A stretch of 64,000 nt of DNA from Cellvibrionaceae bacterium. GTDB lineage: Bacteria; Pseudomonadota; Gammaproteobacteria; Pseudomonadales; Cellvibrionaceae. The stretch is taken from NCBI GenBank assembly GCA_025800435.1, contig JAOXRV010000044.1, forward strand, positions 2,152-66,151. The letters run 5' to 3'. The notes below the pieces were generated by a model. It was given only the letters and a program-made list of their open reading frames with translations, did no database searches and had not been told where the DNA came from. The position numbers and the translations under genes were made by a program. Below, piece by piece: positions 26,571-44,038 of this stretch (position 1 is the stretch's first letter; each line of letters opens with the position of its first letter).

Positions 26571-26597
26571 TAATTTGCTACCGTCAAAACAAACCGT

Positions 26598-27467
26598 ATG
26601 TCTTGGTCGCTAAAGGTATCGCCGGGGCTCGACCAGCTGCAGTTTAACCGCTGGCGAAAACTGCTGGAGCAACGCACGGGCATTGATCTGGGCGAGCAGC
26701 TGCGCAGCTTACTGCAAGTGCAAATTAACCGGCGCATGAGCGCGTTGGGCTGCGCCAGCTACGACGAGTATTACGATCTTATTCAGGCTGGTGTGGGTGG
26801 TCGCTTAGAGCAGACCCTGCTGATTGAAAACCTGGTGGTCAAGGAAACCCGGTTTTATCGGCACCGCCCCTCGTATGACTTTGTCGGTGCACAATTTAAA
26901 GAGTTTTTGCAGCGCTCGCAGACGACCGGCGAGCGCAACTGCTTTGATGTTTGGAGCTTGGGTTGCGCCAGTGGCGAAGAGGCCTACTCGCTGGCGATTT
27001 GCCTAGAGCAGCAGCTGGCTGAGTTTGCGCCCGCAGTTGCCGCTGCTGATAACTACAGTATTGTGGCGACCGATATCAGCCACCGGGCGATTCAGCGGGC
27101 CAGGGCTGGAGCTTACCCGCTGGCGCGGCTGGCGCCGCTCGATGAGCAGCAGCGGCAGCGTTATTTTGACCCCCAGGGGGATGGCACAATGCGGGTTAAA
27201 CCCGCTTTGGCTCGAAAAATTTGTTTTAGCCAAGCTAATATAATTGAGATAAACAAACAGCCGTCAATGGCAATGGATTTAGTGTTTACTCAGAATATGT
27301 TGGTGTACTTTCGCAAGCCGCAGCGGCTGCGAATTTTGGATTTTATAGCTCAGCGCCTCAATATCGGAGGCCATTTAGTGCTGGGCCTAGGAGAGGTAAC
27401 CCAGTGGCACAACCGACAGATGCAGCTGCTCGATGTCGACGGTGCCCAGGTTTACCGGCGCAGTTAA
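26598..27467 (+). CDS. pilK: CheR-type methyltransferase PilK
   Basis: CheR fold with ETRFYRH and SAM-binding VWSLGCASGEEAYSLAI. Confidence 0.9.
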   Translation: MSWSLKVSPGLDQLQFNRWRKLLEQRTGIDLGEQLRSLLQVQINRRMSALGCASYDEYYDLIQAGVGGRLEQTLLIENLVVKETRFYRHRPSYDFVGAQFKEFLQRSQTTGERNCFDVWSLGCASGEEAYSLAICLEQQLAEFAPAVAAADNYSIVATDISHRAIQRARAGAYPLARLAPLDEQQRQRYFDPQGDGTMRVKPALARKICFSQANIIEINKQPSMAMDLVFTQNMLVYFRKPQRLRILDFIAQRLNIGGHLVLGLGEVTQWHNRQMQLLDVDGAQVYRRS

Positions 27468-27492
27468 TACAGTATTGGGGAAGCTTCCCACG

Positions 27493-30400: not shown

Positions 30401-33219
30401 CTGCCGAAGAGGCGCGCCTGCCCCAGGTGGCACAGATTAGTGCGCAGCTAGAAAAAGTGTACCTGGCTATTCCGGCGCAGAGCGAAACAATAGACAGCGC
30501 CATATGCCAACACTTAGAGAGCGGCCACGAAAAAATTCTGGATATGCTCGATGCGGTGGCCGCTACCCAAGAGTTGCCCGAAGCCGGTGAAGCGCTGCTC
30601 AATACCTTGGCAACGGACGCCCAACAGCTGGCTACTGAAGCAGAAGCGCCCGCGGCTGAGATAGAAGCGCTCACAGCTGTGTCAGAAGAACCCGCCGCCG
30701 AGCCCGAACAAGCCGGCGCACAGACAGCGGTCGAGACAGACGAAGCTGGCGCCGAGACGCTAGCGCGGTTGGCCGAAGTCGAGCAGCTTTCCCAGGTTGA
30801 AGTGCCCGCAGCAATTGCTGCGCCCGAGGCCGAGCTAGAGCAGCCTCAAGCACAAGACGCTGACGCGACCGATGTCACGGCCGAAACGCTGGAGCGTGAT
30901 GAGGACCTAGACCCAGAGATTCTCGCCATCTTCTATGAAGAGGCCGATGAGCATATTGAAGAGATTGAAGAGGCGGTGCACCAGTGGGAAGAAACTCCCG
31001 GCCAAACCCAGCACGCCGATGAGCTCAAGCGAATATTGCACACCCTCAAAGGTGGTGCACGCCTGGCTGGTTTGATGGGCCTGGGCCAGCTGGCCCACGA
31101 TTTTGAAACCTATCTGATTCACCAGGGCGATAGCGCCGCCAAAGACCCGAGCTTTTTTGAGCGGGTGCACAGCTTTCAAGACCGGGTGATTCGCGGTATT
31201 AAAGCCAGCCCCGGGCAAGCGCCAGCTAAAGAGCCCGAAGCAGCGCCGGCGCTGGAAGTTGCCGAGCCCGAAGCCCCCACCGAAGTAGCGACCATTGACG
31301 CCGAACAGGTACAAATGCGCACCCAGGCACCGGTACAGGGTGAAAATACGCCGCTTCACGTACAGCGCAGTATGCCCCAGGAAGTGATAAAGGTACCCGC
31401 CGACCTGATTGAAGATTTGGTTAACCTAGCCGGTGAGACATCAATTAGCCGTGGCCGGATGGAGCAACAGGTTTCCGATTGGAGTGGCTCTATCGATGAA
31501 ATGAACGCAACTATTTTGCGTTTGCAAGAACAGCTGCGCCGGCTCGACATTGAGACCGAGGCACAAATATTGTTCCGCCAGGAACAGCTGCAGCAACACG
31601 AAGACTTCGACCCGCTGGAAATGGACCGCTACTCACAGTTGCAGCAACTGTCGCGCTCCCTGGCTGAGTCGGCTTCGGATTTGATGGATTTAAAAAACAC
31701 TCTCGGCGACAGTGCCCGGGATGCGGAACAGCTGCTGTTGCAGCAGTCGCGCATTAATACCGACCTGCAAGAGGGCCTGATGCGCTCGCGCATGGTACCT
31801 TTCTCGCGCATGGTGCCGCGCTTGCGGAGGATTGTGCGCCAGGTATCTACCGAACTTGGCAAACACGTTAACCTGCAGATGGAAAACGTAGAGGGTGAAC
31901 TGGACCGATCGGTGCTTGAGCGCATGGTTACGCCGCTGGAGCATATGCTGCGCAATGCGGTCGACCACGGTATTGAATCGGCCGCCGAGCGCAGTGCCAA
32001 AGGTAAACCCTCTGAGGGCCGAATTGTTATCAGCCTTTCCCGCGAGGGTGGCGATGTGCTACTGCGTTTGGCCGATGACGGTCGCGGCATCAGCTTAGAC
32101 AAGGTAAAAGCCAAGGCGATTGAGCGCGGTATGATGAGCCCCGATGCCAATCTGAGCGACCGCGAGATTATGCAGTTTGTGGTGCAAGCTGGCTTCACCA
32201 CCGCCGAGTCGGTTACCCAGATCTCCGGTCGTGGTGTGGGCCTGGATGTGGTCTCCAGTGAGATTAAACAACTGGGCGGTTCGGTTACTATTAACTCCCA
32301 GGAGGGGCAGGGCACCGAGTTTTTAGTTCGCCTGCCGTTCACCGTGTCGGTAAACCGCGCCCTGATGGTACAGATTGGTGATGATTCTTATGCACTGCCG
32401 CTCAATACCATTGAGGGTATTGTGCGAGTCAGCCCATTTGAGCTGGAGCATTACTACCAAGACCCCCAGTCGCGCTTTGAATACGCCGGTGAAAACTACA
32501 AGGTGCGCTATCTGGGCGAGATGTTGGGCACTGGTGCCCAACCCAAATTAGAAGATCAAATCCTGCCCTTGCCGGTTGTATTGGTGCGCACCTCCGAGCA
32601 TGTGGTGGCTATCCAGGTGGATACCTTGATGGGCAGCCGAGAGATTGTGGTAAAAAGTCTTGGTCCACAGTTTGCGGGGGTGCAGGGTTTGTCTGGTGCC
32701 ACCGTAATGGGTGATGGTAGCGTGGTGGTGATTATCGATCCGGTGGCGCTGATTCGTCGGCAGGAGGCCCTTAGTTATCAGCCCCAGCTATTGCCAGAGC
32801 AGGCCAGTGCATCACTGGATAGCGACGAAATTACGGTGATGGTGGTGGATGACTCGGTAACCGTGCGCAAGGTAAGCAGCCGTTTCTTAGAGCGCCAAGG
32901 CTATCGGGTAATTACTGCTAAAGATGGTATGGAAGCGCTGAAAGTACTGCAGGACGAAATTCCGGCCATTATGCTGCTGGATATTGAAATGCCGCGCATG
33001 GATGGTTTTGAAGTGGCCAAAAATGTGCGCTCCAGCCGCCGCCTGCAAGATTTGCCAATTATTATGATCACTTCGCGCACCGGTGAAAAGCACCGGGATA
33101 GGGCGATGGAGTTGGGGGTAAACCGCTATATGGGCAAGCCCTACCAAGAAGAGGCACTGCTTGAGAATATTAACGACCTGATTGGTGTGGTGCCGCGCGC
33201 CCAAGAGCAACAGGCTTGA
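27493..33219 (+). CDS. chpA: Multi-Hpt CheA-type hybrid histidine kinase ChpA
   Basis: 1908 aa from ATG 27493, the first ATG after the pilK stop codon. Three canonical Hpt motifs: FHTLKGSGR (His codon 29488-29490), LHTLKGSAH (29962-29964) and LHTLKGGAR (31039-31041). Also a CheA dimerisation/ATPase core (HMLRNAVDHGIE, DDGRGI, GRGVGLD), a CheW-like domain and a C-terminal receiver (MVVDDS ... LLDIEMPRMDG ... GKP). Confidence 0.93.
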   Translation: MEEKTDLTALDWVLGEIAESLNQSQQALEAYMANADDATQLRFCLTHLHQVYGSLQMIELEAPAMLAGEMERLTQEMLDGAVTTEESVAKLLMRAIVQLPLYLQQIKREQKFHSASVYPLVNELRSARGDSLIIDAVGFNPKLDMLQQSSGMAPKLVKQPDHFLQVAKKLQQMFQFAAASALRGIDLKQNREYLKKVFLRLKSISQASPRLAQWQIAEAWLDGIDNEELSGGLAVRALMRHLHRDIKLLSQQGIKALAVPASNELLRTLLFYVACSSAESEAIALVKQRYRLDQAFGEPGHKGFGELAEPEFDTVASVTKALKEELDEIKQTLEKFSGNSTDYSSLEEVLPVFQRVADTMTVMGINELPERIKAVGAELKQGLNRATLKPAQLMPMAEQILQLEQQLEAIAASGRLQNKVDQQTLNALRINDAQQAVVAEAYLGLEQVKQSIVDYLSSQWESEHLAGTPALLKEIAGGLGIIPLQRAANILYTAACYVEDKLLSGDAGAPQWVELDTLADTISSVEYYLEMLKSSIASTDDNQLQMAEDSLAKLGYNVAELQHVSSEQAAAPEASNFGGTAAPLLSVVETEPTPAAQVSEVNPQCSPEPEPVAEAQPEDDEVDEEIREIFIEEAGEVIEAIGEYFPRWAADFNDSEALAEFRRAFHTLKGSGRLVKAEQIGELAWSVENMLNRVMDGAIEANQQQASLIQQVQALLPAMVEAFADGRQAEPAEEIAQLQAWAGQLAQNQTPEAMLAAVTEAGTAAPVAGETEIDEELEEQYQLWDIFVSEAESHLAVVKSFTDRQCAVAPLFEAPPDPFQRALHTLKGSAHMAAVTEVAEIATPLEGLAKEMRNYQVVLNQDSLQLFIDAHDRIKAALAQINAREPIVIEDKELLLARVAEQYDLNVGHLIHQEQDSPLGFADPAKLVAFMAEGMDLLLDADRLMVSWRSGAPKPDVAAIRAELQALHRAAEEARLPQVAQISAQLEKVYLAIPAQSETIDSAICQHLESGHEKILDMLDAVAATQELPEAGEALLNTLATDAQQLATEAEAPAAEIEALTAVSEEPAAEPEQAGAQTAVETDEAGAETLARLAEVEQLSQVEVPAAIAAPEAELEQPQAQDADATDVTAETLERDEDLDPEILAIFYEEADEHIEEIEEAVHQWEETPGQTQHADELKRILHTLKGGARLAGLMGLGQLAHDFETYLIHQGDSAAKDPSFFERVHSFQDRVIRGIKASPGQAPAKEPEAAPALEVAEPEAPTEVATIDAEQVQMRTQAPVQGENTPLHVQRSMPQEVIKVPADLIEDLVNLAGETSISRGRMEQQVSDWSGSIDEMNATILRLQEQLRRLDIETEAQILFRQEQLQQHEDFDPLEMDRYSQLQQLSRSLAESASDLMDLKNTLGDSARDAEQLLLQQSRINTDLQEGLMRSRMVPFSRMVPRLRRIVRQVSTELGKHVNLQMENVEGELDRSVLERMVTPLEHMLRNAVDHGIESAAERSAKGKPSEGRIVISLSREGGDVLLRLADDGRGISLDKVKAKAIERGMMSPDANLSDREIMQFVVQAGFTTAESVTQISGRGVGLDVVSSEIKQLGGSVTINSQEGQGTEFLVRLPFTVSVNRALMVQIGDDSYALPLNTIEGIVRVSPFELEHYYQDPQSRFEYAGENYKVRYLGEMLGTGAQPKLEDQILPLPVVLVRTSEHVVAIQVDTLMGSREIVVKSLGPQFAGVQGLSGATVMGDGSVVVIIDPVALIRRQEALSYQPQLLPEQASASLDSDEITVMVVDDSVTVRKVSSRFLERQGYRVITAKDGMEALKVLQDEIPAIMLLDIEMPRMDGFEVAKNVRSSRRLQDLPIIMITSRTGEKHRDRAMELGVNRYMGKPYQEEALLENINDLIGVVPRAQEQQA

Positions 33220-33221
33220 GT

Positions 33222-34190
33222 ATGAGTTCAGAGTTCGCTTTAAGTATCGGCCTGATTGCCGATCAGCCGTCCCAGTTACAGCGCATGCGCCAGATGCTCA
33301 ACAAGCTTGGTTCTGAGCCTGAGCTGAGCCTGTTACTGGCCCAGCAAGATTGGCCCCAGTGGCAGCCTCCGCGTGAGGTGCAGGCCTGGCTGGTTTGTGT
33401 GGATTTAGAAAACTCAGACCACACCGATTTTGAAGACTGGTTGGCCGAACGGGATGAGGTGGTGATTCTCGCCGATGAAGAAATTCCCAGCCCCTCTAGC
33501 CCCAGCCACCGCGTGTGGCTAGAACGCTGGCAGCGCAAACTGCTGCAACTGGCGCAGGCCCAGCCGAGCAGCGTGCAATGGCCCGGCCAGCTGTGGCTAT
33601 TGGCCGCCTCTACCGGCGGGCCCGATGCGGTGGCGGAGTTTTTAAGTGAGTTGCCGGCCGATCTCGATGCCGCTTTTGTGTATTTGCAGCATGGGCGACC
33701 CGAGGCTGAGCCCAATACCCTGGCGGTGTTAAACCGCCACAGCAAGTTACCGATTAGGATGGCGCGCCCTGGTGAGGCGATTGCACCAGCCCAGGTTTAT
33801 ATGGTGGCGGCGGCCGAGGCTATCGCCCTTAATAGCCAGGGTTGTTTTGTCAGCGAGGGCAAACCCTGGCTGGCCGGGCCCGCCCCCAATGCGGACCAGT
33901 TTATTCACGCCGCAATACATCGCTTGGGTCCGGCCGACAAAACCAGTTTGGGGATGATCGTGTTCTCGGGCATGGGCGAGGACAGTGCCGCCGCCTGCCG
34001 CTTTGCCCAGCGTTGGGGCTGCAAGGTTTGGGCGCAAAGCCCAGACAGCTGTATTAGCCCTTATATGCCCAGTGCTGCGCTGCAAACCGGTTGTGTGTCT
34101 TACAGTGCTAGCCCACGCGGTTTGGCCCAGCGTTTGTTAAATGAATTGGTTCTGGGCGACGATATAGAGGCCCAGTTAGTGGGCGGCTAA
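33222..34190 (+). CDS. chpB: CheB-type methylesterase ChpB
   Basis: C-terminal CheB catalytic residues in LLAASTGGPDAV (Ser), YLQHG (His) and FSGMGEDS (Asp), with an atypical N-terminal receiver-like region. ATG 33222 lies 3 nt after the chpA stop codon. Confidence 0.85.
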   Translation: MSSEFALSIGLIADQPSQLQRMRQMLNKLGSEPELSLLLAQQDWPQWQPPREVQAWLVCVDLENSDHTDFEDWLAERDEVVILADEEIPSPSSPSHRVWLERWQRKLLQLAQAQPSSVQWPGQLWLLAASTGGPDAVAEFLSELPADLDAAFVYLQHGRPEAEPNTLAVLNRHSKLPIRMARPGEAIAPAQVYMVAAAEAIALNSQGCFVSEGKPWLAGPAPNADQFIHAAIHRLGPADKTSLGMIVFSGMGEDSAAACRFAQRWGCKVWAQSPDSCISPYMPSAALQTGCVSYSASPRGLAQRLLNELVLGDDIEAQLVGG

Positions 34191-34217
34191 GCTCTAGCAA
34201 GATTTGGTAGCGACAGT

Positions 34218-34703
34218 ATGCAACAGTTACAACAGCAAAAACCCACTGAAGTACCCACACTGGTGGTGCCCGTAGCCGGCTTTACCCTGTTACTGCCGAC
34301 GGTATCGGTGGCAGAGATGGTGCCGTATCGCAAATCTCGTTTTTTACCTGAAAAAACGACTGGGCCGCTCAGTGGTTATTTGGGCCGTTACGAGTGGCGC
34401 GATCAGCAAGTGCCATTACTATCGTTTGAAGAACTAAACGGCCTGCCCCGGGGCGAGGTGTCCGGCTATAATCAGGTGGCCATTATCAATGCCACTGGGG
34501 TGGATAAAAATTTGGCCTATGTAGCGCTAATCGCCCAGGGTATTCCTCACCTAATGCGCATTACCCCAGCGACCATCACGCCAAGTGAAGATGCGCCGGA
34601 GTTGCCCTTTGTCACAATGACGGTGGTGGCTGAGGGGCGGGAGGCGGTGATTCCCGATGTGGCGGCACTGGAACGCGAGGCTTTAGGACAGCTAGGGCAC
34701 TGA
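34218..34703 (+). CDS. chpC: CheW-like protein ChpC
   Basis: 161 aa CheW-like fold, the last gene of the Chp cluster by synteny. Confidence 0.8.
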   Translation: MQQLQQQKPTEVPTLVVPVAGFTLLLPTVSVAEMVPYRKSRFLPEKTTGPLSGYLGRYEWRDQQVPLLSFEELNGLPRGEVSGYNQVAIINATGVDKNLAYVALIAQGIPHLMRITPATITPSEDAPELPFVTMTVVAEGREAVIPDVAALEREALGQLGH

Positions 34704-34789
34704 GCCAGGTCCTAGAGGTTCTGCGAGATGTAAGCTTGAAGGGTAGGGGGTACTTTCGCCGTAAATGACTTTAGGACCGGGCGAGTAAC

Positions 34790-35518
34790 TTAAAAATCTC
34801 CCCAGCGCTGTTGCAGCAAACTTAAGGCGACTATCGGCGCTGTCTCGGTGCGTAAAACTCGTGGCCCCATGGTTAGGCCCTTAAATTCTTGCTGGCGTGC
34901 CCGTTCAATTTCCTGCTCGCTTAAACCACCCTCGGGGCCAATCAGCAGCATGGCGCTGTTGTCGGCTAGTTTATAATCGCCGAGGCCGGCACTGTCTCGA
35001 TGATGCATAACCAGTTTAAGGCCGGCGACCGCTTGGCTTAAGAAATCGTCTATTTTTTGAACCGGGTTAAGTGCTGGCAGACGGCTGCGGCCGCACTGCT
35101 CGCAGGCGCTAATAATTATTTGTTGCCAGTGTTTGTGTTTTTTTTCCAGCCTGGGGCCGCTGAGTTTAACTTCGGTGCGGCTAGTAAACAGAGGGCTGAT
35201 TTCACTAACCCCCAGTTCTGTGGCCTTTTGCAGTACCCAGTCCATACGCTCGCCCCGGGAGATACCAATGGCCAAGTGGGTATGCAGAGGGGATTCGCCT
35301 TGTGCGCTGTAACTCTTGGTAATCTTTACACGGGTGACTTTTTTACCTGTCTCATTAATAATAGCGAGATATTCATTGCCCGTTCCATTAAATAGTACTA
35401 GTTCCCGACCGGCGCTCATCCGCAGCACTCGGCTTATATGGTGGGATGGCCCCTCTTCCAGCTCGACTTCGGCCGCATTTTGTAGGTCTTGGGGGGTATA
35501 GATTCTGGGTACGCGCAT
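34790..35518 (-). CDS. rsmE: 16S rRNA (uracil1498-N3)-methyltransferase RsmE
   Basis: N-terminal MRVPRIY plus the SPOUT C-terminal motif LLIGPEGGLSEQE ... LGPRVLRTETA. Confidence 0.92.
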   Translation of the reverse strand: MRVPRIYTPQDLQNAAEVELEEGPSHHISRVLRMSAGRELVLFNGTGNEYLAIINETGKKVTRVKITKSYSAQGESPLHTHLAIGISRGERMDWVLQKATELGVSEISPLFTSRTEVKLSGPRLEKKHKHWQQIIISACEQCGRSRLPALNPVQKIDDFLSQAVAGLKLVMHHRDSAGLGDYKLADNSAMLLIGPEGGLSEQEIERARQQEFKGLTMGPRVLRTETAPIVALSLLQQRWGDF

Positions 35519-35626
35519 AGAATTAGATGGATTTAGCGATTTCAGATGATATAAGCGCCAGCTTTGTCGGTGAGGTCGTAATAGTAGCAGATAAGTCGTT
35601 ATAGATAAGTAGAAATCGAGAGGTCC

Positions 35627-36268
35627 ATGAAAGCGTCGCTGTTAATAGTTGAAGATTGCGAAGCCACCCGCGAGCGAATGGAAAATGCCATTATCGAGGG
35701 GGGAGAGTATCGCTTAGTGGGGTCGGTGGGTTCTTTTAAAGCGGCCCAGGCATTATTGGAAAGCGCTGCACCGGATATTCTGCTGACCGATTTAGACCTG
35801 CCCGATGGCAATGGTATCAATCTAATAAAAATGTTGAGTCTGCCACATATAACCACCCAGCTGGCGATTGTAATCACGGTTTTTGGCGATGAGGAGCATG
35901 TGATTAAAGCCTTGCGCGCGGGTGCCTCGGGCTATTTGTTAAAAGATGATGACTTTATTGAGATCAATAGTGCAATCGGTCAAATGCGTGATGGTGGAGC
36001 GCCCATCAGCCCCGGTGTGGCGCGCTTTTTATTGCAAGAGTTAAGCCCTGCACCTAAGCGCCAGGAAGACAGACCAGTGGGCTTAAGCGAGCGCGAAAAC
36101 GAGATTCTACTGTTGGTGAGCAAGGGCTATACCTCCAAAGAAATCGGCAATATGCTCAATGTCTCTTTTCACACGGTCAACGCCCACGTAAAAAATATCT
36201 ATAAAAAACTGGCTGTCACCAATCGCACCGGCGCCATTTATGAGGCCACCAAAAAAGGCATTATCTAA
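35627..36268 (+). CDS. NarL/LuxR-family response regulator
   Basis: Receiver (LLIVEDCE ... ILLTDLDLPDGNG ... YLLKD) plus a LuxR helix-turn-helix (LSERENEILLLVSKGYTSKEIGNMLNVSFHTVNAHVKNIYKKL). Confidence 0.92.
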   Translation: MKASLLIVEDCEATRERMENAIIEGGEYRLVGSVGSFKAAQALLESAAPDILLTDLDLPDGNGINLIKMLSLPHITTQLAIVITVFGDEEHVIKALRAGASGYLLKDDDFIEINSAIGQMRDGGAPISPGVARFLLQELSPAPKRQEDRPVGLSERENEILLLVSKGYTSKEIGNMLNVSFHTVNAHVKNIYKKLAVTNRTGAIYEATKKGII

Positions 36269-36277
36269 GGTTTTATT

Positions 36278-38272
36278 ATGTCTAAACCCCTGTATTTGAC
36301 TGCGTTGTTATTGGCTAGCCAGGCACAGGCGGTAGATGAAATCTTAGAGTTTGAGCTTCCTTTAGTTGTCAGTGCCAGCCGCATCACCCAAACCGCCCTT
36401 ACCAGCCCTGCGGCTATTACGGTGATCGATAAGCATATGATTGCCGCCAGCCCCTATAACGATATTGCCGACCTCTTGCGCCTGGTGCCGGGTTTTCAGG
36501 TGGCCAAGGCCGATGGCCGAACATTTTCGGTTAACTCTCACGGCGGTGGTTGGGAATACGCCAACCGCATGCAGGTGCTAGTAAATGGCCGCTCGACTTA
36601 TTTGCCCACGCTGTCGGTGGTTGATTGGGATAATTTGGGTGTGCATATTCAGGATATCGAGCGAATTGAAATAGTGCGCGGGCCCAGCGCCTCGGCCTAC
36701 GGCTCCAACTCATTCTCTGCGGCCATCAATATTATTACTAAGGCCGCTGCTATCGATGAGGCCTATAACATCAGCACCCGAGTGGGCAATAACGGCGAGC
36801 GTGAAGTGCTGGGTCGCTATGCTGGCCGCAGCGAGCAAATGGACTACCGCCTGAGCCTGTGGAAGCGACGCAATAATGGCCTGGATAGTTTTCACGACTT
36901 TCGAGACCACAACAACTTCTCTTTTAGTGCTCGTACAGATTTGCGCGAGCGGGGCGAGCTGGATGTCGAGTTCAACCTGTTTAAGGGCAAGACCGGAGCC
37001 GGTGAGTTTGATTTGCTTGAGCGAGTTGACCGGCAGGTGCAAGGGTTTGGGGCCAAGGTTGCCTGGGCGAAAAACGTCAGCGCCAGCGAAGAGCTAAAGC
37101 TACAGCTCTACTATAACTACCGCAATGATGATGACCTGAGCCAAACCATCCCTCTGGCCGACATTTTCGGGGTATCCCAGCAGGTGTTTGAAGCGATTAC
37201 CGGCGCCGATGATGTGGTGTATCGCACTGGCTATAACACCCACCGGGCTCGGCGGCTGGATTTTGAAACCCTATACAGCTGGTTTAAGGACTCTGGCTTT
37301 AAAGCGGTTGCAGGCCTCGGCATACGTCAAGATTTTCTCAAAAGTGTTTCCTACTTCCCTCAAAAAGGCGAGGTAGAGGAAACCAGTTTGCGCGGCTTTG
37401 CCAATGTCCAACAACCCCTGTTAAAGGGGCTGCTGCTCAATGCCGGTGTGCTGTATGAGCTGCCCGGTGATGACAGCGGCCACTGGTCGCCCCGTTTAAG
37501 TCTTAACTGGAGCTTTCAGCCTCAGCAAAGTTTTCGGATGAGTGTGTCTAAGGCCTACCGCATGCCGTCTTTGCTTGAGGCCAACTTTTTTACCGAGACT
37601 CGTTTAAGTAACGGTTTTATAGTGGATAAACGCTATTATACGGATCGGGATATCTCCGCCGAACAACTACTGAGTTACAGTTTGGGCTACCAGGGTAAAT
37701 ACCGAGCCTGGCAGTGGGAGCTCAATTTGTACAAGGAAGAGTACGACCATATGATCGATTATGTGATCGATTATAATATTATGGACCTCGCCCAGGATCA
37801 CGCCTCTCGGGTTGGTAATTACGATAGTTATGACGCCTACGGTGTCGAAGGCGAAGTAATATACCGGCCCCAGCTGGATCAATTTATTCGCCTGCACTTT
37901 AATCGCGGTAAAAGCCTGCAGAAATCACTGCACCGTTTTAACTACAACGGTGTGCCCGAACGTTATCGCTACTACCGCGATCGAGCGCCAGAGAACAGTG
38001 TGGGTCTGCTCGCGGTACACAAGTTTGGTGCCTGGCAGTTTAGCCTCGGCGCTCAGTATATGGGGGCGGTGCACTGGGACGGCTTCGGCGATCGGGTAAA
38101 ATCCTATAGCCGCTACGATGCCAGTGTGCAGCGTTACTGGGCAATCGGTCAGCAGCAACTCAAGCTTAAGCTCGGCGCCCTGAGTTTTGGTGGTCACTAC
38201 CACGAGTTTCATCGTGAGCTGGAAGTAAAACCCGAATACTACCTAAGCCTGTGCTTGAGCGGTCGCGAATGA
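36278..38272 (+). CDS. TonB-dependent outer-membrane receptor (small, 664 aa)
   Basis: Signal peptide ...ASQAQA/VDE, TonB-box-like PLVVSAS, plug motifs (LLRLVPGF, IERIEIVRGPSASAYGSNSFSAAINIITK) and beta-barrel repeats. AAGG Shine-Dalgarno 7 nt upstream. Confidence 0.88.
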   Translation: MSKPLYLTALLLASQAQAVDEILEFELPLVVSASRITQTALTSPAAITVIDKHMIAASPYNDIADLLRLVPGFQVAKADGRTFSVNSHGGGWEYANRMQVLVNGRSTYLPTLSVVDWDNLGVHIQDIERIEIVRGPSASAYGSNSFSAAINIITKAAAIDEAYNISTRVGNNGEREVLGRYAGRSEQMDYRLSLWKRRNNGLDSFHDFRDHNNFSFSARTDLRERGELDVEFNLFKGKTGAGEFDLLERVDRQVQGFGAKVAWAKNVSASEELKLQLYYNYRNDDDLSQTIPLADIFGVSQQVFEAITGADDVVYRTGYNTHRARRLDFETLYSWFKDSGFKAVAGLGIRQDFLKSVSYFPQKGEVEETSLRGFANVQQPLLKGLLLNAGVLYELPGDDSGHWSPRLSLNWSFQPQQSFRMSVSKAYRMPSLLEANFFTETRLSNGFIVDKRYYTDRDISAEQLLSYSLGYQGKYRAWQWELNLYKEEYDHMIDYVIDYNIMDLAQDHASRVGNYDSYDAYGVEGEVIYRPQLDQFIRLHFNRGKSLQKSLHRFNYNGVPERYRYYRDRAPENSVGLLAVHKFGAWQFSLGAQYMGAVHWDGFGDRVKSYSRYDASVQRYWAIGQQQLKLKLGALSFGGHYHEFHRELEVKPEYYLSLCLSGRE

Positions 38273-39201
38273 AACCCTGGTTCTGTGTTTTACTGTTGAG
38301 CTGCAGCGCGCTGCTGCCACAGTGGGTCAGTGCCGATGTCTTGTTGTTATTACCCAATCGCCAGCCCTCCTTTATCAATGCTGCTGAGCTGATAAAAAAG
38401 CAAATGCTGGCCAACGGGGTGCAGGCCGGGCAGGTTAAAATTCGAGATATCGGGCAGGCCGCTGCTTGGGATGAAGACGATTTAATACTGCCCCTGGGGC
38501 CGCTCGCCGCTGGCTTCGTTCAGCGCCAAAGTGTGGCTAACTCGGTGTTGTACACTTTTGTGCAAGAAGCGTTTGTGCGCGAGCTGCCGCGCCAGGGGCT
38601 TGCCAACTGGGCGGCGGTTGTTATTGATCAGCCTCTTGAGCGTATGGTGGTATTGGCCGATGCCCTAAACGAGGGGCGCTATAAAAACAAAATACTGTTA
38701 CTGCATTCATCTGCCAACCAAGCCCTGGCCGAGCAAATTAAACGCCTGCCAACGTTAAAGCACGCCGAGCTGGAAAATATACCCCTGGCGACAACTGGCT
38801 TGGCGGCAGGGCTAGAGAGCCGCTTATACAACGCTGGGCTATTGCTAGCGCCGAGCGACCCAGAGCTGTGGCGCGGTAAAAATGCGCGCTGGCTTTTGTT
38901 GCAAGCCTATAACTATCGCGTGCCGATATTGGCCTACAACCCGGCCCTGATTAAGGCCGGCGCTATGTTGGCGATATATTCAGAAAAACAAGCGATTGCC
39001 AAAGAAAGTGCTCGAATCGCTACCGCTTGGCTGCGCCAGCAGCGTTTTAAGCCAGGCCGTGTGCACTACGCCGAGGCCAGCGTAGCCGTCAACGACAGTA
39101 TTGCCCAGGCATTGCATTTTAATGTTGAAGAGCTGCAGGCACTTATTGAGCGCATTAAAAAGCTCAAGCAGTTTCAGGAGGGGCTAAGCCATGGGCGCTA
39201 G
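38269..39201 (+). CDS. Secreted periplasmic-binding-protein-like protein (PF04392 ABC_sub_bind-like), orphan
   Basis: ATG 38269 overlaps the receptor stop codon (ATGA). Signal peptide MKPWFCVLLLSCSALLPQWVSA. Alternating beta/alpha pattern with ...AYNPALIKAGAMLAIY... and ...VAVNDSIAQALHFNV... resembles the ABC_sub_bind family. This assignment is by eye only. Confidence 0.6.
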   Translation: MKPWFCVLLLSCSALLPQWVSADVLLLLPNRQPSFINAAELIKKQMLANGVQAGQVKIRDIGQAAAWDEDDLILPLGPLAAGFVQRQSVANSVLYTFVQEAFVRELPRQGLANWAAVVIDQPLERMVVLADALNEGRYKNKILLLHSSANQALAEQIKRLPTLKHAELENIPLATTGLAAGLESRLYNAGLLLAPSDPELWRGKNARWLLLQAYNYRVPILAYNPALIKAGAMLAIYSEKQAIAKESARIATAWLRQQRFKPGRVHYAEASVAVNDSIAQALHFNVEELQALIERIKKLKQFQEGLSHGR

Positions 39202-40621
39202 CAGCATTCGCCGCCAATTGTTGAGCCTGGCCTTGATGCCACTGTCGTTAACCATTTTGGCGGTTAGTGTTTTGGCCGTGGTGGCGTCTTTGGAGGATAT
39301 TGAGTCACGCTTAAAGCAGCGCGGCCAAGATATTGGCAAGCAAGCCGTGTTGATGTCGGAGTTTTACTTTTACACCGGAGATCAGCTGCAGCTCAATAAT
39401 GTCGCCGCTATTGTGGCGGGTTTGGAAGGGGTTAGCAGTATTCGCTTTCTAAATGCCCAGGGCGAGGTAATGGTAAAGCGCCGCAATAATGCGGCGGATA
39501 AAGACTTGGATGATCAACATTTGTTTGTGATCCCGATATACAGCAAGGGCATCAGTCTGGATGAGGTCGCGCAGTTGGCGGGTGCGCAAACTGAGCTGAG
39601 CGAAAAACTGGGCAGTATTGAAATCTCGCTATCGAAGGCGGCGTTGACACCGCTGCGTGAGGCCGCCTATATGCGTATTCTGTTGGTGGCCCTAGGGGCA
39701 CTGCTGCTGGGAGTGTTGATGGTGTATTTATTTGGGCGCCGTTTAAGTGCAGCGCTTAGTGAAACCATTGAAGCGGCAAAGTCGGTAAAACGGGGCAATA
39801 TGAATAGCCGCGCGCCGGAAAATGGTGAAGGTGAAATACTGGAGTTTCAAAAAGTATTTAACCGCATGGTGGGCTCGGTGCAGCAGAACGAAGTCCAGCT
39901 GCAAGATCGTATCAATAGCGCCACTCGCTCTTTGAATGAAACCGTGGCAGAGCTTTCCCAAAGCAACCGCGAGTTGGCCGCGACCCGCCAGGCAACCATT
40001 GAACTTGAACGCAGCAAGGCCATCTCGGATGAGCGCGCCCGTATCATGAAAGATATGCACGATGGTATTGGCGGCCAGTTGGTGGCTTCCTTGGCGCTGA
40101 TTGAAAAAGAGCAAAACAGTGAGATTCGCGCGAATATTTCCAGTACCCTGCGCGAGTGCCTGGATGACCTGCGCCTGATTATCTTATCTTTAAATATGCG
40201 CGATAGTACTGTGTCGGCGGTGTTGGCGGATTTTAAGTACCGCGTCCATAAAAAACTGCAAAAACTGGAGATCGAGCTGATCTGGGAGGTCGACGATATT
40301 GCCGACCATATCAGCTTACAGCCCCAGCAGAGCCTGCATTTATTGCGTATTTTACAAGAAGTGTTTACCAACACCTTAAAGCATGCAGGCGCCAGCCAAA
40401 TACACCTAAGGCTTACAAGTGAGCAGGGTAAGGTGCGCTTATCGATTGACGATGATGGAATATTCACGCTGGACGAGGAGCAGCGCGACTGCCACGGCTT
40501 GAATAATATGCAGTGGCGCGCGGCTGAGCTGGGTGGCAATTTAACAGTCGCTTGCAACGAGGCCGGTGGTTGCGCAGTGCGTTTAGACTTTGCAGCTGCC
40601 GATTTATCAGAGGTGCCCTAG
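39191..40621 (+). CDS. Sensor histidine kinase, HisKA_3 (NarX/DesK-type)
   Basis: TM1, a periplasmic loop of about 130 aa, TM2, HAMP, a coiled coil, H-box RIMKDMHDGIGGQL and an HATPase_c domain (LQEVFTNTLKHAG, DDDG). Overlaps the upstream gene by 11 nt. The last five codons lie in the interspersed repeat. Confidence 0.9.
   Translation: MGASSIRRQLLSLALMPLSLTILAVSVLAVVASLEDIESRLKQRGQDIGKQAVLMSEFYFYTGDQLQLNNVAAIVAGLEGVSSIRFLNAQGEVMVKRRNNAADKDLDDQHLFVIPIYSKGISLDEVAQLAGAQTELSEKLGSIEISLSKAALTPLREAAYMRILLVALGALLLGVLMVYLFGRRLSAALSETIEAAKSVKRGNMNSRAPENGEGEILEFQKVFNRMVGSVQQNEVQLQDRINSATRSLNETVAELSQSNRELAATRQATIELERSKAISDERARIMKDMHDGIGGQLVASLALIEKEQNSEIRANISSTLRECLDDLRLIILSLNMRDSTVSAVLADFKYRVHKKLQKLEIELIWEVDDIADHISLQPQQSLHLLRILQEVFTNTLKHAGASQIHLRLTSEQGKVRLSIDDDGIFTLDEEQRDCHGLNNMQWRAAELGGNLTVACNEAGGCAVRLDFAAADLSEVP
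40597..40621 (+). repeat. Copy of short interspersed repeat forming the kinase 3' end
   Basis: GCCGATTTATCAGAGGTGCCCTAG encodes ...DLSEVP*, the same nucleotides that end ppk. Confidence 0.75.
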
Positions 40622-40627
40622 GGTCGG

Positions 40628-40648
40628 GGTATTCAGAGGTGCCCTAAG
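40628..40648 (+). repeat. Tandem second copy of the short interspersed repeat
   Basis: GGTATTCAGAGGTGCCCTAAG, 6 nt after the previous copy, shares GGTATTCAGAGGTGCCCTA with the ppk-end copy. Confidence 0.8.
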
Positions 40649-41228: not shown

Positions 41229-42911
41229 TTATTTGGCTTTACGATATTTTAATTGACCGTTTTGCTTTTCAATAATTGCCTCTTTAATGCGCTTCACCTT
41301 GTACTTTTCTGTCAACACATTATCGACGCTGATAAATTCTGCTTTGGCCTGCTTGTGGTCTAAGCTCAATTTAACAAAGCCTCGGTGCAGGTTGTCTGTC
41401 CATTCCACCTCTTTGTTGTGTTGGGCCAATAGCTTATCCATATGGGCGGCCTTGTCCCGGTCGTAGTTTTCGAAATCTCCCGGTGAGGTGATGCCGGCAG
41501 TGCCTAATTCTACGCCCATTGGCTCATTGTTTTTATTGTAAAGGCTGTTGGTCCAAAAGCTGTGGCTGTCACCAGTCAGAACTAACAGGTCGTTTATGCC
41601 GCGGCTCTTATTTTGCTGGTAAAAAGCCTCGCGCGCGCCGGGGTAGCCATCCCAGGTATCCAAGTACAGAGGTAAGTCCAGCTCGCCCAGGCGACGGAAC
41701 TGGGCATGCTCATCGGCAACCGGATCGTAGCCCTCGGATTTCTTTTGCCCCAATATGGCGGAGACATCGGGCATATGGGTGCGCGCCATCGGAATTTGGT
41801 TGCCGAGCAAATGCCACTGGCTGTTTTGTACCGCATCGCTGGCAATGGCCTTGCCATAGAAACTTTTCATATGGGCCGATAGCATTTCTCGGCCCGGAGC
41901 GGCAAGTACCTTATCCAAAAAGCGCTGGCGATCCTCGCTTGTGTTAATTTCAGCCAAGTGATCTTTATAGTCTACCTGTAAGCTGCGCCCAGTGTGGCGA
42001 GTCTCTAGGGTGAGCAGACTGGCCAGGTCACCAAACTGAAAGTGACGCCAAAGTTGTTCGCGGCTGCGGCCGGGCCCGGGGTCGCGCACTGGCATCCACT
42101 CATAATAGGCTTGCACCGAAGCATGGCGACGGCTGCCCCAATCGCCCTCTGTTTCGCTCTGGTGATTTTGGGCGCCTTGCATATGGGGGTTATTGGTAGA
42201 CTCGTGATCATCCCAAGTGGGAATCAGCGGATGCGCCGCGTGCATTAGGCGCGAGGCGGGGTCGGCTTTGTATTGGGCGTGGCGTTGACGGTAGTCGGCC
42301 AAGCTGACAATTTCATGGCTGGGCTGGTGGTTTCGGTTGATGGTTTTGCCGGTTTTGCCGCCGTAGCCATCGTGGCCGTATTCATAAATATAGTCGCCCA
42401 GGTGCAAGATAAAATCGATATCTTTATCGGCGGCGATAACCTCATAGGCATTAAAGTAGCCAAATGGGTAGTTAGAACAGGAGGCCACCGCGATACACAA
42501 TTTATCGACCTTGCCCACCGGGGTGGTGCGGCTGCGGCCGGGTTCGGAGTAAACCCCCTGATATTCAAAGCGATAGTAATAAACCTGGCCGGGTTTGAGG
42601 CCTTGTGGCTCCACTTTAACGCAGTAGTCGCGGCTGGCATCGGTGTTGGCCTGGCCCTGCTGTACAATTGTTTGAAAATTATCGTCTGCAGCCAACTGCC
42701 AGTTAACTTGGGCGCTGTTGTCGCTGCTACTAATACGCGTCCACAGTAATACACTGTGTGGGCCCGGCTCGCCGCTGGCAATGCCGTGTTGAAACACAGC
42801 TTGTACTTTAGGGTCGCTGCTGGCGGCGATAACTTTGGCCGCAAAACTACCGGCGCCAATACCGGCTAGGGAGGCCTTGAGTAGGCGTCGACGAGATAGT
42901 TCTAAATTCAT
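41229..42911 (-). CDS. phoD: Alkaline phosphatase D family (PhoD), Tat-exported
   Basis: Twin-arginine signal LSRRRLLKASLAGIGAG and PhoD metallophosphatase motifs HLGDYIYEYG, PTWDDHE and VLTGDSHSFW. Confidence 0.9.
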   Translation of the reverse strand: MNLELSRRRLLKASLAGIGAGSFAAKVIAASSDPKVQAVFQHGIASGEPGPHSVLLWTRISSSDNSAQVNWQLAADDNFQTIVQQGQANTDASRDYCVKVEPQGLKPGQVYYYRFEYQGVYSEPGRSRTTPVGKVDKLCIAVASCSNYPFGYFNAYEVIAADKDIDFILHLGDYIYEYGHDGYGGKTGKTINRNHQPSHEIVSLADYRQRHAQYKADPASRLMHAAHPLIPTWDDHESTNNPHMQGAQNHQSETEGDWGSRRHASVQAYYEWMPVRDPGPGRSREQLWRHFQFGDLASLLTLETRHTGRSLQVDYKDHLAEINTSEDRQRFLDKVLAAPGREMLSAHMKSFYGKAIASDAVQNSQWHLLGNQIPMARTHMPDVSAILGQKKSEGYDPVADEHAQFRRLGELDLPLYLDTWDGYPGAREAFYQQNKSRGINDLLVLTGDSHSFWTNSLYNKNNEPMGVELGTAGITSPGDFENYDRDKAAHMDKLLAQHNKEVEWTDNLHRGFVKLSLDHKQAKAEFISVDNVLTEKYKVKRIKEAIIEKQNGQLKYRKAK

Positions 42912-43969
42912 AATGGGCTCCTGTTATTAGGCACGCTCAGTGCGGAGAAAGGATACTGTTGCCGGGCCAAAACCTGGCCGGTTTCGGACTTTAGGCCAAA
43001 CTGCAATTGTTGGCCCTGCCAGTCGATATCGATAAAGCCGTAGTTGACCTTGCTGAAGGCTTTGCCCTGGCGATGTTTATTGGGGCTGATCTGCTTCCAT
43101 TCTTCGCTCAGGCCCGAGCTGGTTATCTCCCACAGTGGGTAGCTGTGTTGAAGGCGGCTGATCTCGCCCCAGTGGGTATCACCGCTGATAAACAGCACGC
43201 CTTCAATTTTTTGCTCGGCAATAAAATCTAATAGCCGCTGGCGGTCGCCAGGGTAGTTGGCCCAGCTTTCCCAACCGGTAAATTCCGGTAACAGTTGTAA
43301 GCTGCTGGCAATAATTTTTAGCTTGGCGGGTTTTTTTAATTCTTGTTGCAGCCACTGCCATTGCTTTTGTCCCAGCATTGAGGCGCTGGCGTCAGCTGGT
43401 CGATAGGGGCCCATATCTTTTCTGGCCCTATATAGCCAGTTCCAAAGGCCATTAACCTTGGGCAGCGGGTCACGGTTCCAGCGCAGATCGGGCAATATAA
43501 TATGCACACTCTGCTCGCCCTCGCCAAAAAAATAGGCGGTGTAGTTGCCATCGCTGCGCTGGCGGCGGGGTGAGTTGCTGGGCTCCCCAAAGAAGTCCAG
43601 CATAATCTGTTTGGACTCCGCTTTTTTGGGGTATTCGGCGCCGGCGTCGTTTTCGCCGTAGTCATGGTCGTCCCAAATGGCTATTAGCTGGCTCTGTTGG
43701 CGCAGGGTTTGAAAGCGCGGCTTGGCGCCGAGTTTTTGATACTTGGCCGCCAGCTCCTTCATATCTTCGGTATCGCCGTAAATATTATCGCCCAGCATAA
43801 TAAATAGATCGGGGTGTTCGGCATTAATGGCATCGAGAATGGCAAGCTCGCTGTCCTGGTGTGAGCAGGAGCCAAACAAGATTCGCTTTGGCAGCTCGGC
43901 GCTACTGTGCTCAGCGGCGGCGATGCAAAGCAATAATACGCAGTATGTCAAAAATTTAGCGGTGGACAA
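42908..43969 (-). CDS. PhoD-like metallophosphatase (short form), Sec-exported
   Basis: Motifs ILFGSCSHQD, MLGDNIYGD, WDDHDYGENDAG and ISGDTHWGE. Start re-picked at TTG 43969 (GGAGG 7 nt upstream), giving the signal peptide MSTAKFLTYCVLLLCIAAA. The longer ORF to 44008 would begin inside a strong hairpin. Its stop codon overlaps the phoD start (ATGA). Confidence 0.8.
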   Translation of the reverse strand: MSTAKFLTYCVLLLCIAAAEHSSAELPKRILFGSCSHQDSELAILDAINAEHPDLFIMLGDNIYGDTEDMKELAAKYQKLGAKPRFQTLRQQSQLIAIWDDHDYGENDAGAEYPKKAESKQIMLDFFGEPSNSPRRQRSDGNYTAYFFGEGEQSVHIILPDLRWNRDPLPKVNGLWNWLYRARKDMGPYRPADASASMLGQKQWQWLQQELKKPAKLKIIASSLQLLPEFTGWESWANYPGDRQRLLDFIAEQKIEGVLFISGDTHWGEISRLQHSYPLWEITSSGLSEEWKQISPNKHRQGKAFSKVNYGFIDIDWQGQQLQFGLKSETGQVLARQQYPFSALSVPNNRSPL

Positions 43970-43981
43970 TGTAAAGCCTCC

Positions 43982-44020
43982 AAAAACACTAAAACCCCAC
44001 AGCGGCAAACCGCTGTGGGG
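43982..44020 (-). terminator. Intrinsic terminator / attenuator hairpin between the receptor and phosphatase genes
   Basis: On the minus strand, CCCCACAGCGG-TTTG-CCGCTGTGGGG (perfect 11-bp stem) is followed by TTTTAGTGTTTTT. Confidence 0.7.
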
Positions 44021-44038
44021 TTGTTGGCCGGGCCCGGT

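What the first reader, a model, noticed from the sequence alone, without database searches (positions are those of the whole stretch)
35627..40621. Coupled operon of response regulator, TonB-dependent receptor, orphan periplasmic binding protein and HisKA_3 kinase: candidate outer-membrane-to-two-component signalling system
Seen in sequence: four same-strand genes are packed with a 9-nt gap (36269-36277), an ATGA start/stop overlap (38269-38272) and an 11-nt overlap (39191-39201), so they form one translationally coupled unit. Gene 1 is a NarL/LuxR-type response regulator. Gene 2 is a 664-aa TonB-dependent receptor with plug and TonB box but no FecA-type N-terminal signalling extension. Gene 3 is a secreted protein of about 310 aa whose pattern looks like the PF04392 (ABC_sub_bind) periplasmic-binding fold. 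Gene 4 is a membrane kinase with a periplasmic loop of about 130 aa, HAMP and a DesK/NarX-type H-box (MHDGIGGQL). No permease, ABC ATPase, sigma/anti-sigma pair or catabolic enzyme is adjacent. An 8-nt direct repeat AGATAAGT (35589-35596 and 35603-35610) just upstream of gene 1 could be an autoregulatory operator. Inference: a ligand imported by the receptor is read in the periplasm by the binding protein, which gates the kinase. That would be a TonB-dependent transduction route different from the FecA/FecR/FecI paradigm. I know of no characterised member, but I cannot exclude that one exists.
Basis: partly seen in the sequence, partly recalled or inferred. Interest (0 to 1): 0.7.

Follow-up and report, generated by a model that had tools for sequence, protein, structure and literature searches.

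The report
Outer-membrane receptor, binding protein, sensor kinase module
This four-gene operon is one member of a widespread but unstudied bacterial sensing module, in which a periplasmic binding protein is always encoded next to a membrane sensor kinase and usually behind a dedicated outer-membrane TonB-dependent receptor; the well-known Pseudomonas aeruginosa virulence kinase PA1611, whose signal is unknown, appears to sit in the same arrangement.

Summary
Four same-strand genes sit at the stated coordinates with the stated junctions. They encode a NarL/LuxR response regulator, a TonB-dependent receptor (TBDR) without a signalling extension, a secreted two-lobed PF04392-type binding protein (SBP), and a HisKA_3 kinase. 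The kinase's periplasmic domain plus HAMP is of the GacS/BarA (sCache_4) type.

The key result is conservation. In 135 loci picked only by an SBP motif, a sensor with the same sCache_4-HAMP input lies directly downstream in 121 of 124 loci with room, mostly with an ATGA overlap. A related TBDR lies directly upstream in 101 of 119. ABC transporter genes are almost never nearby. Sensor outputs vary: hybrid HisKA kinases, GGDEF/EAL, and HisKA_3 plus LuxR regulator only in this Cellvibrionaceae clade.

The SBP-sensor pair is therefore a conserved input module, and the TBDR is a frequent but dispensable outer-membrane gate. Related logic is already known, so it is not a wholly new principle: PfeA/PfeS/PfeR, TorT/TorS and LuxP/LuxQ. 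The proposed AGATAAGT operator is not conserved. I found no characterised member. By annotation and my recollection of PAO1 gene numbering, P. aeruginosa PA1613-PA1612-PA1611 matches the triad.

The parts
35575..35587 (+). Conserved -10-like element (GTCGTAATAGTAG; relatives have CATAATAA) about 40 nt upstream of the regulator start. Putative operon promoter.
   Evidence: This is the only block shared by the upstream regions of the window, L001 and L003-L008 (alignment). The consensus promoter scan did not call it, so the evidence is weak.
35589..35610 (+).
   Evidence: Present in the sequence. It is absent from all related upstream regions, and comparable repeats occur 98 times in the window. 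Not supported as a functional site.
35627..36268 (+). NarL/LuxR-family response regulator (REC plus GerE helix-turn-helix), 213 aa.
   Evidence: Pfam Response_reg E 5e-17 and GerE E 6e-17. The best NCBIfam matches are MadR and NarL, both below cut-off. It occupies this position only in the HisKA_3 clade: L001 and L003-L008.
36278..38272 (+). TonB-dependent receptor, 664 aa. It has a signal peptide, a TonB box (LPLVVSA), a plug and a barrel, and no N-terminal signalling domain.
   Evidence: Pfam Plug and TonB_dep_Rec_b-barrel only. The closest curated family is NF053590, the TOL_0244 TBDR, at 174 bits against a cut-off of 645. Related TBDRs lie directly upstream of the SBP gene in 101 of 119 loci.
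38269..39201 (+). Secreted two-lobed solute-binding protein, 310 aa. It belongs to a divergent PF04392 (ABC_sub_bind) subfamily with a DQPxxR motif (DQPLER at residues 120-125).
   Evidence: Family profile against PDB entries 3LKV, 3LFT and 6HNI gives E 6e-19 to 2e-15. The AlphaFold2 model has pLDDT 84.8, and the top Foldseek hits are 3LFT, 3LKV and 6HNJ. The motif is present in 142 of 154 closest representatives.
39191..40621 (+). Membrane sensor histidine kinase, 476 aa. Layout: TM1, a periplasmic GacS-type sCache_4 domain (about residues 35-159, nt 39293-39667), TM2, HAMP (nt 39728-39883), a HisKA_3 H-box (His290, nt 40058-40060) and HATPase (nt 40331-40591).
   Evidence: Pfam and NCBIfam results, hydropathy. 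A sensor profile built without this clade hits residues 1-243 at E 6e-34. The family sensor profile hits the GacS periplasmic domain 5O7J at E 9e-18.

Best explanation
The operon encodes a three-layer envelope sensor.

The core is a periplasmic PF04392-type solute-binding protein made in fixed proportion with, and acting on, the GacS-type (sCache_4) periplasmic domain of the membrane kinase encoded immediately downstream. The SBP closes on a ligand that is still unknown. By docking on or leaving the sensor domain, it switches the HAMP-linked transmitter between kinase and phosphatase states.

The TonB-dependent receptor encoded just upstream supplies that ligand across the outer membrane. This implies a molecule too large or too scarce to enter through porins.

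In this Cellvibrionaceae clade the transmitter is of the HisKA_3 type and phosphorylates the LuxR-type regulator encoded first in the operon. That regulator then controls unknown target genes, probably including the operon itself.

Shown here: gene order, domain identities, the fold, and very strong conservation of the SBP-sensor pair and of the TBDR-SBP-sensor triad.

Inferred: import by the TBDR, ligand binding by the SBP, SBP-sensor contact, and the regulon.
For: 1. SBP-sensor adjacency. Loci were selected only by an SBP peptide motif. A gene with the same sCache_4-HAMP input lies directly downstream in 53 of 54 loci (genomes) and 68 of 70 loci (metagenomes). The junction is a 4-nt ATGA overlap in 85 of 128 cases.

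2. Variable output. The sensor's output domain varies while its input is constant: HisKA in 41 of 53, REC 38, Hpt 24, GGDEF 3, EAL 2, and HisKA_3 only in the window clade. This is the signature of a shared input module.

3. TBDR linkage. A related TBDR is directly upstream in 43 of 50 and 58 of 69 loci. All three TBDRs tested have as best curated match the same family, and that family is itself defined by linkage to a periplasmic protein and a kinase (NF053590).

4. No transporter. Only 3 of 55 loci have any ABC ATPase-like ORF within about 8 kb.

5. SBP fold. The SBP is a complete two-lobed type I binding protein. Its near-invariant polar residues (D120, Q121, R125, D197, S224, N275) each follow a beta-strand end in the model. 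That is where the inter-lobe cleft lies in this fold.

6. Precedents. TorT (in its complex with the TorS sensor domain), LuxP and XylFII are among the structural neighbours; from general knowledge LuxP gates LuxQ and XylFII pairs with the kinase LytS. Import by a TBDR followed by periplasmic sensing by a kinase is established for PfeA/PfeS.
Against: - No experiment or complex model supports SBP-sensor contact.
- The TBDR is absent from about 15% of loci with room, so it is not essential to the module.
- The solved PF04392 proteins bind aromatic amino acids. These would not need a TBDR, and the ligand here is unknown.
- The window SBP and the HisKA_3 and sCache_4 domains each score below the Pfam thresholds on their own.
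- An ABC permease encoded elsewhere in the genome cannot be excluded from a 64-kb window.
Confidence: 0.6

Rival explanations
1. Partner-switch model, similar to YfiB/YfiR/YfiN. The SBP-like protein is a periplasmic inhibitor or activator of the kinase. The TBDR does not import a ligand for it. Instead the TBDR captures or releases the SBP at the outer membrane when it binds something at the cell surface or when the envelope is stressed.
For: The closest curated TBDR family (NF053590) and a weak match of the kinase's TM2-HAMP region (NF053592, 'YfiR-like protein-associated') point to a sister system. That system is built from a TBDR, a small periplasmic alpha/beta protein and a kinase. A single-lobe relative of PF04392 exists in the PDB (5Z6V and 6K1W).
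Against: The protein here is a full two-lobed binding protein with a conserved cleft-side motif. YfiR itself was not detected by sequence at E <= 10. The TBDR is absent from about 15% of loci while the SBP-sensor pair persists. This fits an access role better than an obligatory signalling partner.
Confidence: 0.15
2. PfeA/PfeS-like model without a signalling role for the SBP. The kinase's own sCache_4 domain senses the imported ligand directly. The TBDR is simply the regulated uptake gene. The SBP serves transport through a permease encoded elsewhere.
For: TBDR genes next to two-component systems that sense the imported substrate directly are established. PF04392 proteins with known function are ABC transporter SBPs.
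Against: SBP-sensor adjacency is 121 of 124 with a translational overlap, and it holds even where the TBDR is missing. ABC genes are almost never nearby. The DQPxxR subfamily is distinct from the transporter SBPs.
Confidence: 0.15
3. The gene clustering has no functional meaning. It is inherited synteny of unrelated genes.
For: None beyond the absence of experiments.
Against: The triad recurs across Gamma- and Betaproteobacteria in unrelated flanking contexts. It also recurs with different output domains.
Confidence: 0.03

Closest known systems
SBP-gated sensor kinases: TorT/TorS, LuxP/LuxQ, XylFII/LytS, BctC/BctE
   Same: A type I periplasmic binding protein is encoded next to a membrane kinase and controls it through the kinase's periplasmic domain. 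TorT, LuxP and XylFII are structural neighbours of the model. The class is reviewed in PMC8050422 and PMC9602780.
   Different: Those SBPs belong to other Pfam families. PF04392 is not mentioned in that review, which lists the known cases. Their sensor domains are not the GacS-type sCache_4. None has a dedicated TBDR in the operon.
PfeA/PfeS/PfeR and PirA/PirS/PirR of Pseudomonas aeruginosa
   Same: A TBDR imports the signal molecule, and an inner-membrane kinase of a two-component system then senses it in the periplasm. The genes are clustered. There is no sigma/anti-sigma pair (PMC8001512).
   Different: That system has no SBP intermediary, and ferri-enterobactin is reported to interact with PfeS. 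From general knowledge, the regulator is of the OmpR type rather than the LuxR type, and the kinase is not sCache_4/HisKA_3.
PA1613-PA1612-PA1611 of P. aeruginosa (PA1611 is the hybrid kinase that binds RetS and feeds HptB)
   Same: A P. aeruginosa genome table lists a TonB-dependent receptor (702 aa), then an 'ABC-type uncharacterized transport system periplasmic component' (309 aa), then a hybrid kinase (651 aa), next to fabA/fabB and gpsA. The junctions are a 0-nt gap and a 4-nt overlap. This is exactly the triad seen here. PA1611 has a periplasmic PAS/Cache-like domain at residues 38-169, and its signal is listed as unknown.
   Different: Its output is a HisKA hybrid kinase feeding HptB, not HisKA_3 plus a LuxR regulator. 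The assignment to PA numbers rests on my memory of the PAO1 map. I could not obtain the sequences to test family membership.
GacS/BarA/LetS periplasmic detector domain (sCache_4, PDB 5O7J)
   Same: The sensor profile of this family matches the GacS periplasmic domain at E 9e-18. BarA is the best NCBIfam model for the hybrid members.
   Different: As far as I know, GacS and BarA themselves are not encoded next to an SBP or a TBDR. The members here score below the BarA cut-off, so they are paralogues rather than orthologues.
FecA/FecR/FecI cell-surface signalling
   Same: An outer-membrane TonB-dependent protein sits at the head of a transcriptional signalling route.
   Different: Here there is no N-terminal signalling domain on the TBDR and no sigma/anti-sigma genes nearby.
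NCBIfam triad: TOL_0244-family TBDR, YfiR-like protein and associated kinase (NF053590, NF053592)
   Same: It is the closest curated TBDR family for the window TBDR and for two distant relatives. It has the same three-layer layout: outer-membrane receptor, periplasmic alpha/beta protein and HAMP kinase.
   Different: All scores are far below the curated cut-offs (174 against 645, and 24.9 against 194). The periplasmic protein here is a two-lobed PF04392 relative, not YfiR-like.

Membership tests
PF04392 ABC_sub_bind (type I solute-binding protein) | Match to the family HMM above the gathering score | tested here: inconclusive
   The window protein alone scores 18.1 bits against a cut-off of 25.9. 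49 of 51 relatives match at E <= 0.01, and three scanned individually score above the cut-off. An out-of-clade profile hits the window protein at E 6e-41. The family profile hits the PF04392 structures 3LKV, 3LFT and 6HNI at E 6e-19 to 2e-15.
PF04392 ABC_sub_bind (type I solute-binding protein) | Two alpha/beta lobes joined by a hinge, plus a signal peptide | tested here: met
   AlphaFold2 model with pLDDT 84.8 and pTM 0.79 shows alternating strand-helix lobes. The best Foldseek hits are 3LFT, 3LKV and 6HNJ, with probability 1.00. The N-terminal signal sequence is visible.
PF04392 ABC_sub_bind (type I solute-binding protein) | Works with an adjacent ABC permease and ATPase | tested here: not met
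   There is no ABC ATPase-like ORF in the window, and only 3 of 55 related loci have one. A transporter elsewhere in the genome cannot be excluded.
TonB-dependent receptor | Plug domain, 22-strand barrel domain, TonB box and signal peptide | tested here: met
   Plug E 2e-17 and barrel E 1e-21. The sequence LPLVVSA follows a cleavable signal peptide.
TonB-dependent transducer (FecA-type cell-surface signalling) | N-terminal signalling (STN) domain, and an adjacent ECF sigma / anti-sigma pair | tested here: not met
   Only Plug and barrel are found, with about 24 residues between the signal peptide and the plug. The neighbouring genes are rsmE, a small ORF and PhoD phosphatases.
NarL/LuxR-type two-component system (HisKA_3 kinase plus REC-GerE regulator) | REC plus GerE regulator; kinase with a HisKA_3 H-box and an HATPase domain | tested here: met
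   REC and GerE are above threshold. The HisKA_3 HMM is weak (18 bits against 24), but the H-box MHDGIGGQL is present. The NarQ and NarX models match residues 280-470 at E 1e-23 and 1e-22.
GacS/BarA-type sCache_4 sensor domain | Periplasmic PF09984 domain between two TM helices, followed by HAMP | tested here: met
   The window kinase alone is weak (E 0.0098). 45 of 49 family sensors match PF09984. The family profile hits the GacS domain 5O7J at E 9e-18. An out-of-clade profile covers window residues 1-243 at E 6e-34.
SBP-dependent sensor kinase systems (TorT/TorS class) | SBP gene adjacent to the kinase gene | tested here: met
   There is an 11-nt overlap here. A sensor lies directly downstream in 121 of 124 related loci.
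SBP-dependent sensor kinase systems (TorT/TorS class) | Direct, ligand-dependent binding of the SBP to the kinase's periplasmic domain | not testable with these tools
   No multimer prediction and no experiment was available. Only single-chain prediction of window sequences was allowed.
NCBIfam TOL_0244 TBDR / YfiR-like-associated kinase system | Scores above the curated cut-offs of NF053590 and NF053592 | tested here: not met
   174.3 bits against 645, and 24.9 bits against 194. Distant relatives score 165 and 196 bits.

The most novel reading that the evidence does not exclude
The DQPxxR subfamily of PF04392 binding proteins is the long-sought extracellular input device for a large class of GacS-like (sCache_4-HAMP) sensors. 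This class would include P. aeruginosa PA1611. Together with its dedicated TBDR, it would form a general 'TonB-dependent three-component' pathway: a scarce molecule is pumped across the outer membrane in order to be sensed, not eaten. The signal then feeds two-component, phosphorelay or c-di-GMP outputs.
Probability: 0.45. Interest if true: 0.8.

Novelty: new variant of a known kind. Interest (0 to 1): 0.62.

Why it matters
- Only about ten SBP-gated kinases are characterised (PMC9602780), and none involves PF04392 or a GacS-type sensor domain. The signals for the GacS-network kinases are largely unknown (PMC5812489).
- A conserved TBDR-SBP-sensor module gives a concrete handle. The SBP is a soluble protein that can be purified and screened for ligands. 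The TBDR says the ligand is scarce or bulky.
- If PA1612 and PA1613 belong to the family, the input of PA1611 becomes directly testable. PA1611 is a switch between acute and chronic infection in P. aeruginosa.
- The module would also extend TonB-dependent signalling beyond the sigma/anti-sigma paradigm to kinases and c-di-GMP enzymes across Beta- and Gammaproteobacteria.

Tried and rejected
**Literature**
None found a paper describing a TBDR plus PF04392 plus kinase system.
- My guess that P. aeruginosa PA3268-PA3271 was a member was dropped. The only informative listed paper on PA3271 concerns the CrbS/R system, and I know CrbS-type kinases carry a different sensor; I did not open that paper.

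**Attempts to get P. aeruginosa PA1612 sequence (all failed)**
- Word-indexed protein searches returned only 5, 10 and 6 hits.
- Cluster look-ups of ten 300-350 aa representatives gave no Pseudomonas names.
- A metagenome scan gave 80 more loci, but none with fabA downstream.
- The paper supplements searched held nothing on PA1611, PA1612 or PA1613.
- The Kong et al. 2013 paper on PA1611 is not held.

**Other dead ends**
A 12-sequence alignment was used instead.
- The first metagenome attempt, with the 150-sequence alignment, failed for lack of a conserved stretch.
- Promoter and terminator scans gave no more sites than shuffled sequence.
- Rfam found nothing in the window.
- The downstream TBDR-PhoD-PhoD cluster was considered as a possible regulon. 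It is adjacent only in one other genome, L005, so it was not adopted.
- The AGATAAGT operator idea was rejected.


Full report
**1. What is in the sequence**

The window comes from a Cellvibrionaceae metagenome-assembled genome. The SBP is identical to NCBI protein OIF35_12130.

Four + strand ORFs lie at 35627-36268, 36278-38272, 38269-39201 and 39191-40621.
- A 9-nt gap with an AAGG Shine-Dalgarno-like element.
- An ATGA stop/start overlap at 38269-38272.
- An 11-nt overlap, with a strong AGGAGGGG ribosome-binding site inside the SBP gene, before the kinase ATG.

Pfam and NCBIfam give the following:
- Gene 1: REC plus GerE.
- Gene 2: Plug plus TonB-dependent barrel, with no signalling extension.
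- Gene 3: only a sub-threshold PF04392 match.
- Gene 4: HAMP, a weak HisKA_3 match and HATPase.

Hydropathy and motif checks confirm signal peptides on genes 2 and 3. They also confirm the TonB box LPLVVSA, two TM helices that bracket a periplasmic domain of about 125 residues in the kinase, and the H-box MHDGIGGQL with His290.

The AGATAAGT repeat is present. However, equivalent close 8-mer repeats occur 98 times in the window, and it is missing from every related upstream region. Those regions instead share a -10-like CATAATA block.

**2. Identity of the two weakly scoring parts**

*The SBP*
- It has few close relatives in the word-indexed database.
- An exhaustive profile search found 7,828 cluster representatives at E <= 1e-3 and 1,645 at E <= 1e-30.
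- A profile of 51 relatives matches the solved PF04392 proteins 3LKV, 3LFT and 6HNI at E 6e-19 to 2e-15.
- 49 of 51 relatives match PF04392 at E <= 0.01.
- A profile that excludes the window's own clade still hits the window protein at E 6e-41.
- An AlphaFold2 model (pLDDT 84.8, pTM 0.79) is a two-lobed type I binding protein. Its best PDB matches are those same three structures. Next come ribose-type binding proteins, including TorT in complex with the TorS sensor domain, LuxP, LsrB and XylFII.
- The subfamily carries a DQPxxR motif (DQPLER here) in 142 of 154 closest representatives. The solved PF04392 proteins, which bind Tyr, Phe or Trp (PMC6816091), lack it.
- The near-invariant polar residues each follow a beta-strand end in the model. 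This is the usual position of the inter-lobe cleft. That placement is my inference, because I could not inspect coordinates.

*The kinase sensor region*
- 45 of 49 family members match Pfam sCache_4, and all 49 match HAMP.
- The family profile hits the periplasmic detector domain of P. aeruginosa GacS (5O7J) at E 9e-18.
- An out-of-clade profile covers window residues 1-243 at E 6e-34.

**3. Conservation of the arrangement**

One scan of species-representative genomes used a peptide pattern taken only from the SBP. It returned 52 loci from Cellvibrionaceae, Pseudoteredinibacter, Methylophaga, Porticoccaceae, Marinobacterium, Amphritea, Granulosicoccaceae, Berkiella, Gallionellaceae, Sideroxydans, Thiobacillus, Nitrosomonadales, Rhodocyclaceae, Burkholderiales and others. 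One metagenome scan added 80 more loci.

Uniform profile-based scoring gave these counts:

| Feature | Genome set | Metagenome set |
|---|---|---|
| sCache_4-HAMP sensor gene directly downstream of the SBP gene (loci with room) | 53 of 54 | 68 of 70 |
| Related TBDR directly upstream (loci with room) | 43 of 50 | 58 of 69 |

- The SBP-sensor junction is a 4-nt overlap in 85 of 128 cases.
- One of the loci counted as having a TBDR (L002) carries only a 90-aa remnant, in a context where relatives have the full gene.
- Only 3 of 55 loci have any ABC ATPase-like ORF within about 8 kb.

The full four-gene order with a LuxR regulator and a HisKA_3 kinase of about 470 aa is confined to the window, L001 and L003-L007. 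L008 (Methylophaga) has it without the TBDR.

Elsewhere the same input is fused to other outputs: BarA-like hybrid kinases of about 890 aa, HisKA-REC kinases of about 650 aa, a PAS-rich kinase, or GGDEF/EAL proteins.

The TBDRs of the window and of two distant loci all have as best curated match NF053590. This is a TBDR family that NCBI names after a locus tag; its sister model NF053592 is described as 'YfiR-like protein-associated'. The scores are far below cut-off.

**4. Mechanism**

The data show a conserved input module (SBP plus sCache_4-HAMP sensor) that is usually served by a dedicated outer-membrane receptor.

The TBDR brings a scarce or bulky ligand into the periplasm. The SBP binds it. 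The SBP then sets the signalling state of the sensor. Here the output is phosphorylation of the LuxR-type regulator.

Each half has a precedent. The first is SBP-gated kinases. The second is TBDR import followed by periplasmic sensing by a kinase in PfeA/PfeS/PfeR.

The main rivals are:
- A YfiBNR-like partner switch, in which the TBDR sequesters the SBP.
- A PfeS-like model, in which the sensor reads the ligand itself and the SBP serves a distant transporter.

The persistence of the SBP-sensor pair without the TBDR, the translational coupling, and the absence of ABC genes favour the main model. No step has been tested.

**5. Relation to what is known**

I found no paper on this triad. PF04392 does not appear in the review of signalling SBPs.

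One paper's gene table for a P. aeruginosa isolate lists three consecutive genes between fabA/fabB and gpsA:
- A TonB-dependent receptor of 702 aa.
- An 'ABC-type uncharacterized transport system periplasmic component' of 309 aa.
- A hybrid kinase of 651 aa.

The junctions are a 0-nt gap and a 4-nt overlap. From my memory of the PAO1 map, these are PA1613, PA1612 and PA1611.

PA1611 is the hybrid kinase that binds RetS and feeds HptB. Its signal is listed as unknown (PMC5812489). It has a periplasmic PAS/Cache-like domain at residues 38-169. PA1612 is absent from the published P. aeruginosa SBP inventories I could read.

I could not retrieve the sequences, so this link rests on annotation and gene order only.

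**6. Verdict**

- The operator proposal is rejected.
- The claim of a route unlike anything known is softened. This is a new combination of known principles, built from families not previously tied to signalling.
- It is widespread, uncharacterised, and probably includes a medically relevant kinase.

Noticed in passing
window 40607-40620 and 40633-40646: A 14-nt direct repeat, TCAGAGGTGCCCTA. The first copy spans the kinase stop codon and the second lies 12 nt downstream. Its function is unknown.
   Followed up: no
window 41229-46363 (- strand): A cluster convergent with the operon. It encodes a second TonB-dependent receptor (774 aa, 44039-46363) and two PhoD-like phosphatases (42908-44008 and 41229-42911). 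This looks like an organophosphate scavenging unit. It lies next to the operon also in Pseudoteredinibacter isoporae (L005), but not in L003, L004 or L006.
   Followed up: partly
window 24414-35518: A Pil-Chp type chemosensory cluster: a PilJ-like MCP, a 1928-aa ChpA-like multi-Hpt CheA, a CheB-like protein and a CheW. It is followed by rsmE on the opposite strand. The CheW-rsmE part is syntenic with the operon in L001 and L003-L006.
   Followed up: partly
window 8557-10596 (- strand) and 4148-6277 (- strand): A separate hybrid histidine kinase with a periplasmic CHASE5 domain, and a polyphosphate kinase.
   Followed up: no
L002 5408-5680; L017 5776-7845: Two Porticoccaceae loci share the same flanking genes. 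In L002 the TBDR is reduced to a 90-aa remnant that still matches the TBDR profile, while the SBP and kinase are intact. This suggests that loss of the receptor is tolerated.
   Followed up: partly
L012 7623-12129; L101; L129: Rare loci where the SBP gene is not followed by the sCache_4 sensor. In L012 a GGDEF protein lies two genes downstream. In three other loci the sensor itself carries GGDEF or EAL outputs.
   Followed up: partly
L043 3352-7626: Marinobacterium sp. YM272 has two tandem TBDR genes upstream of the SBP-kinase pair.
   Followed up: no
L022 2705-3445: An ABC ATPase gene lies immediately upstream of the TBDR in one betaproteobacterial locus. It is one of only three loci with any ABC ATPase nearby.
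   Followed up: no
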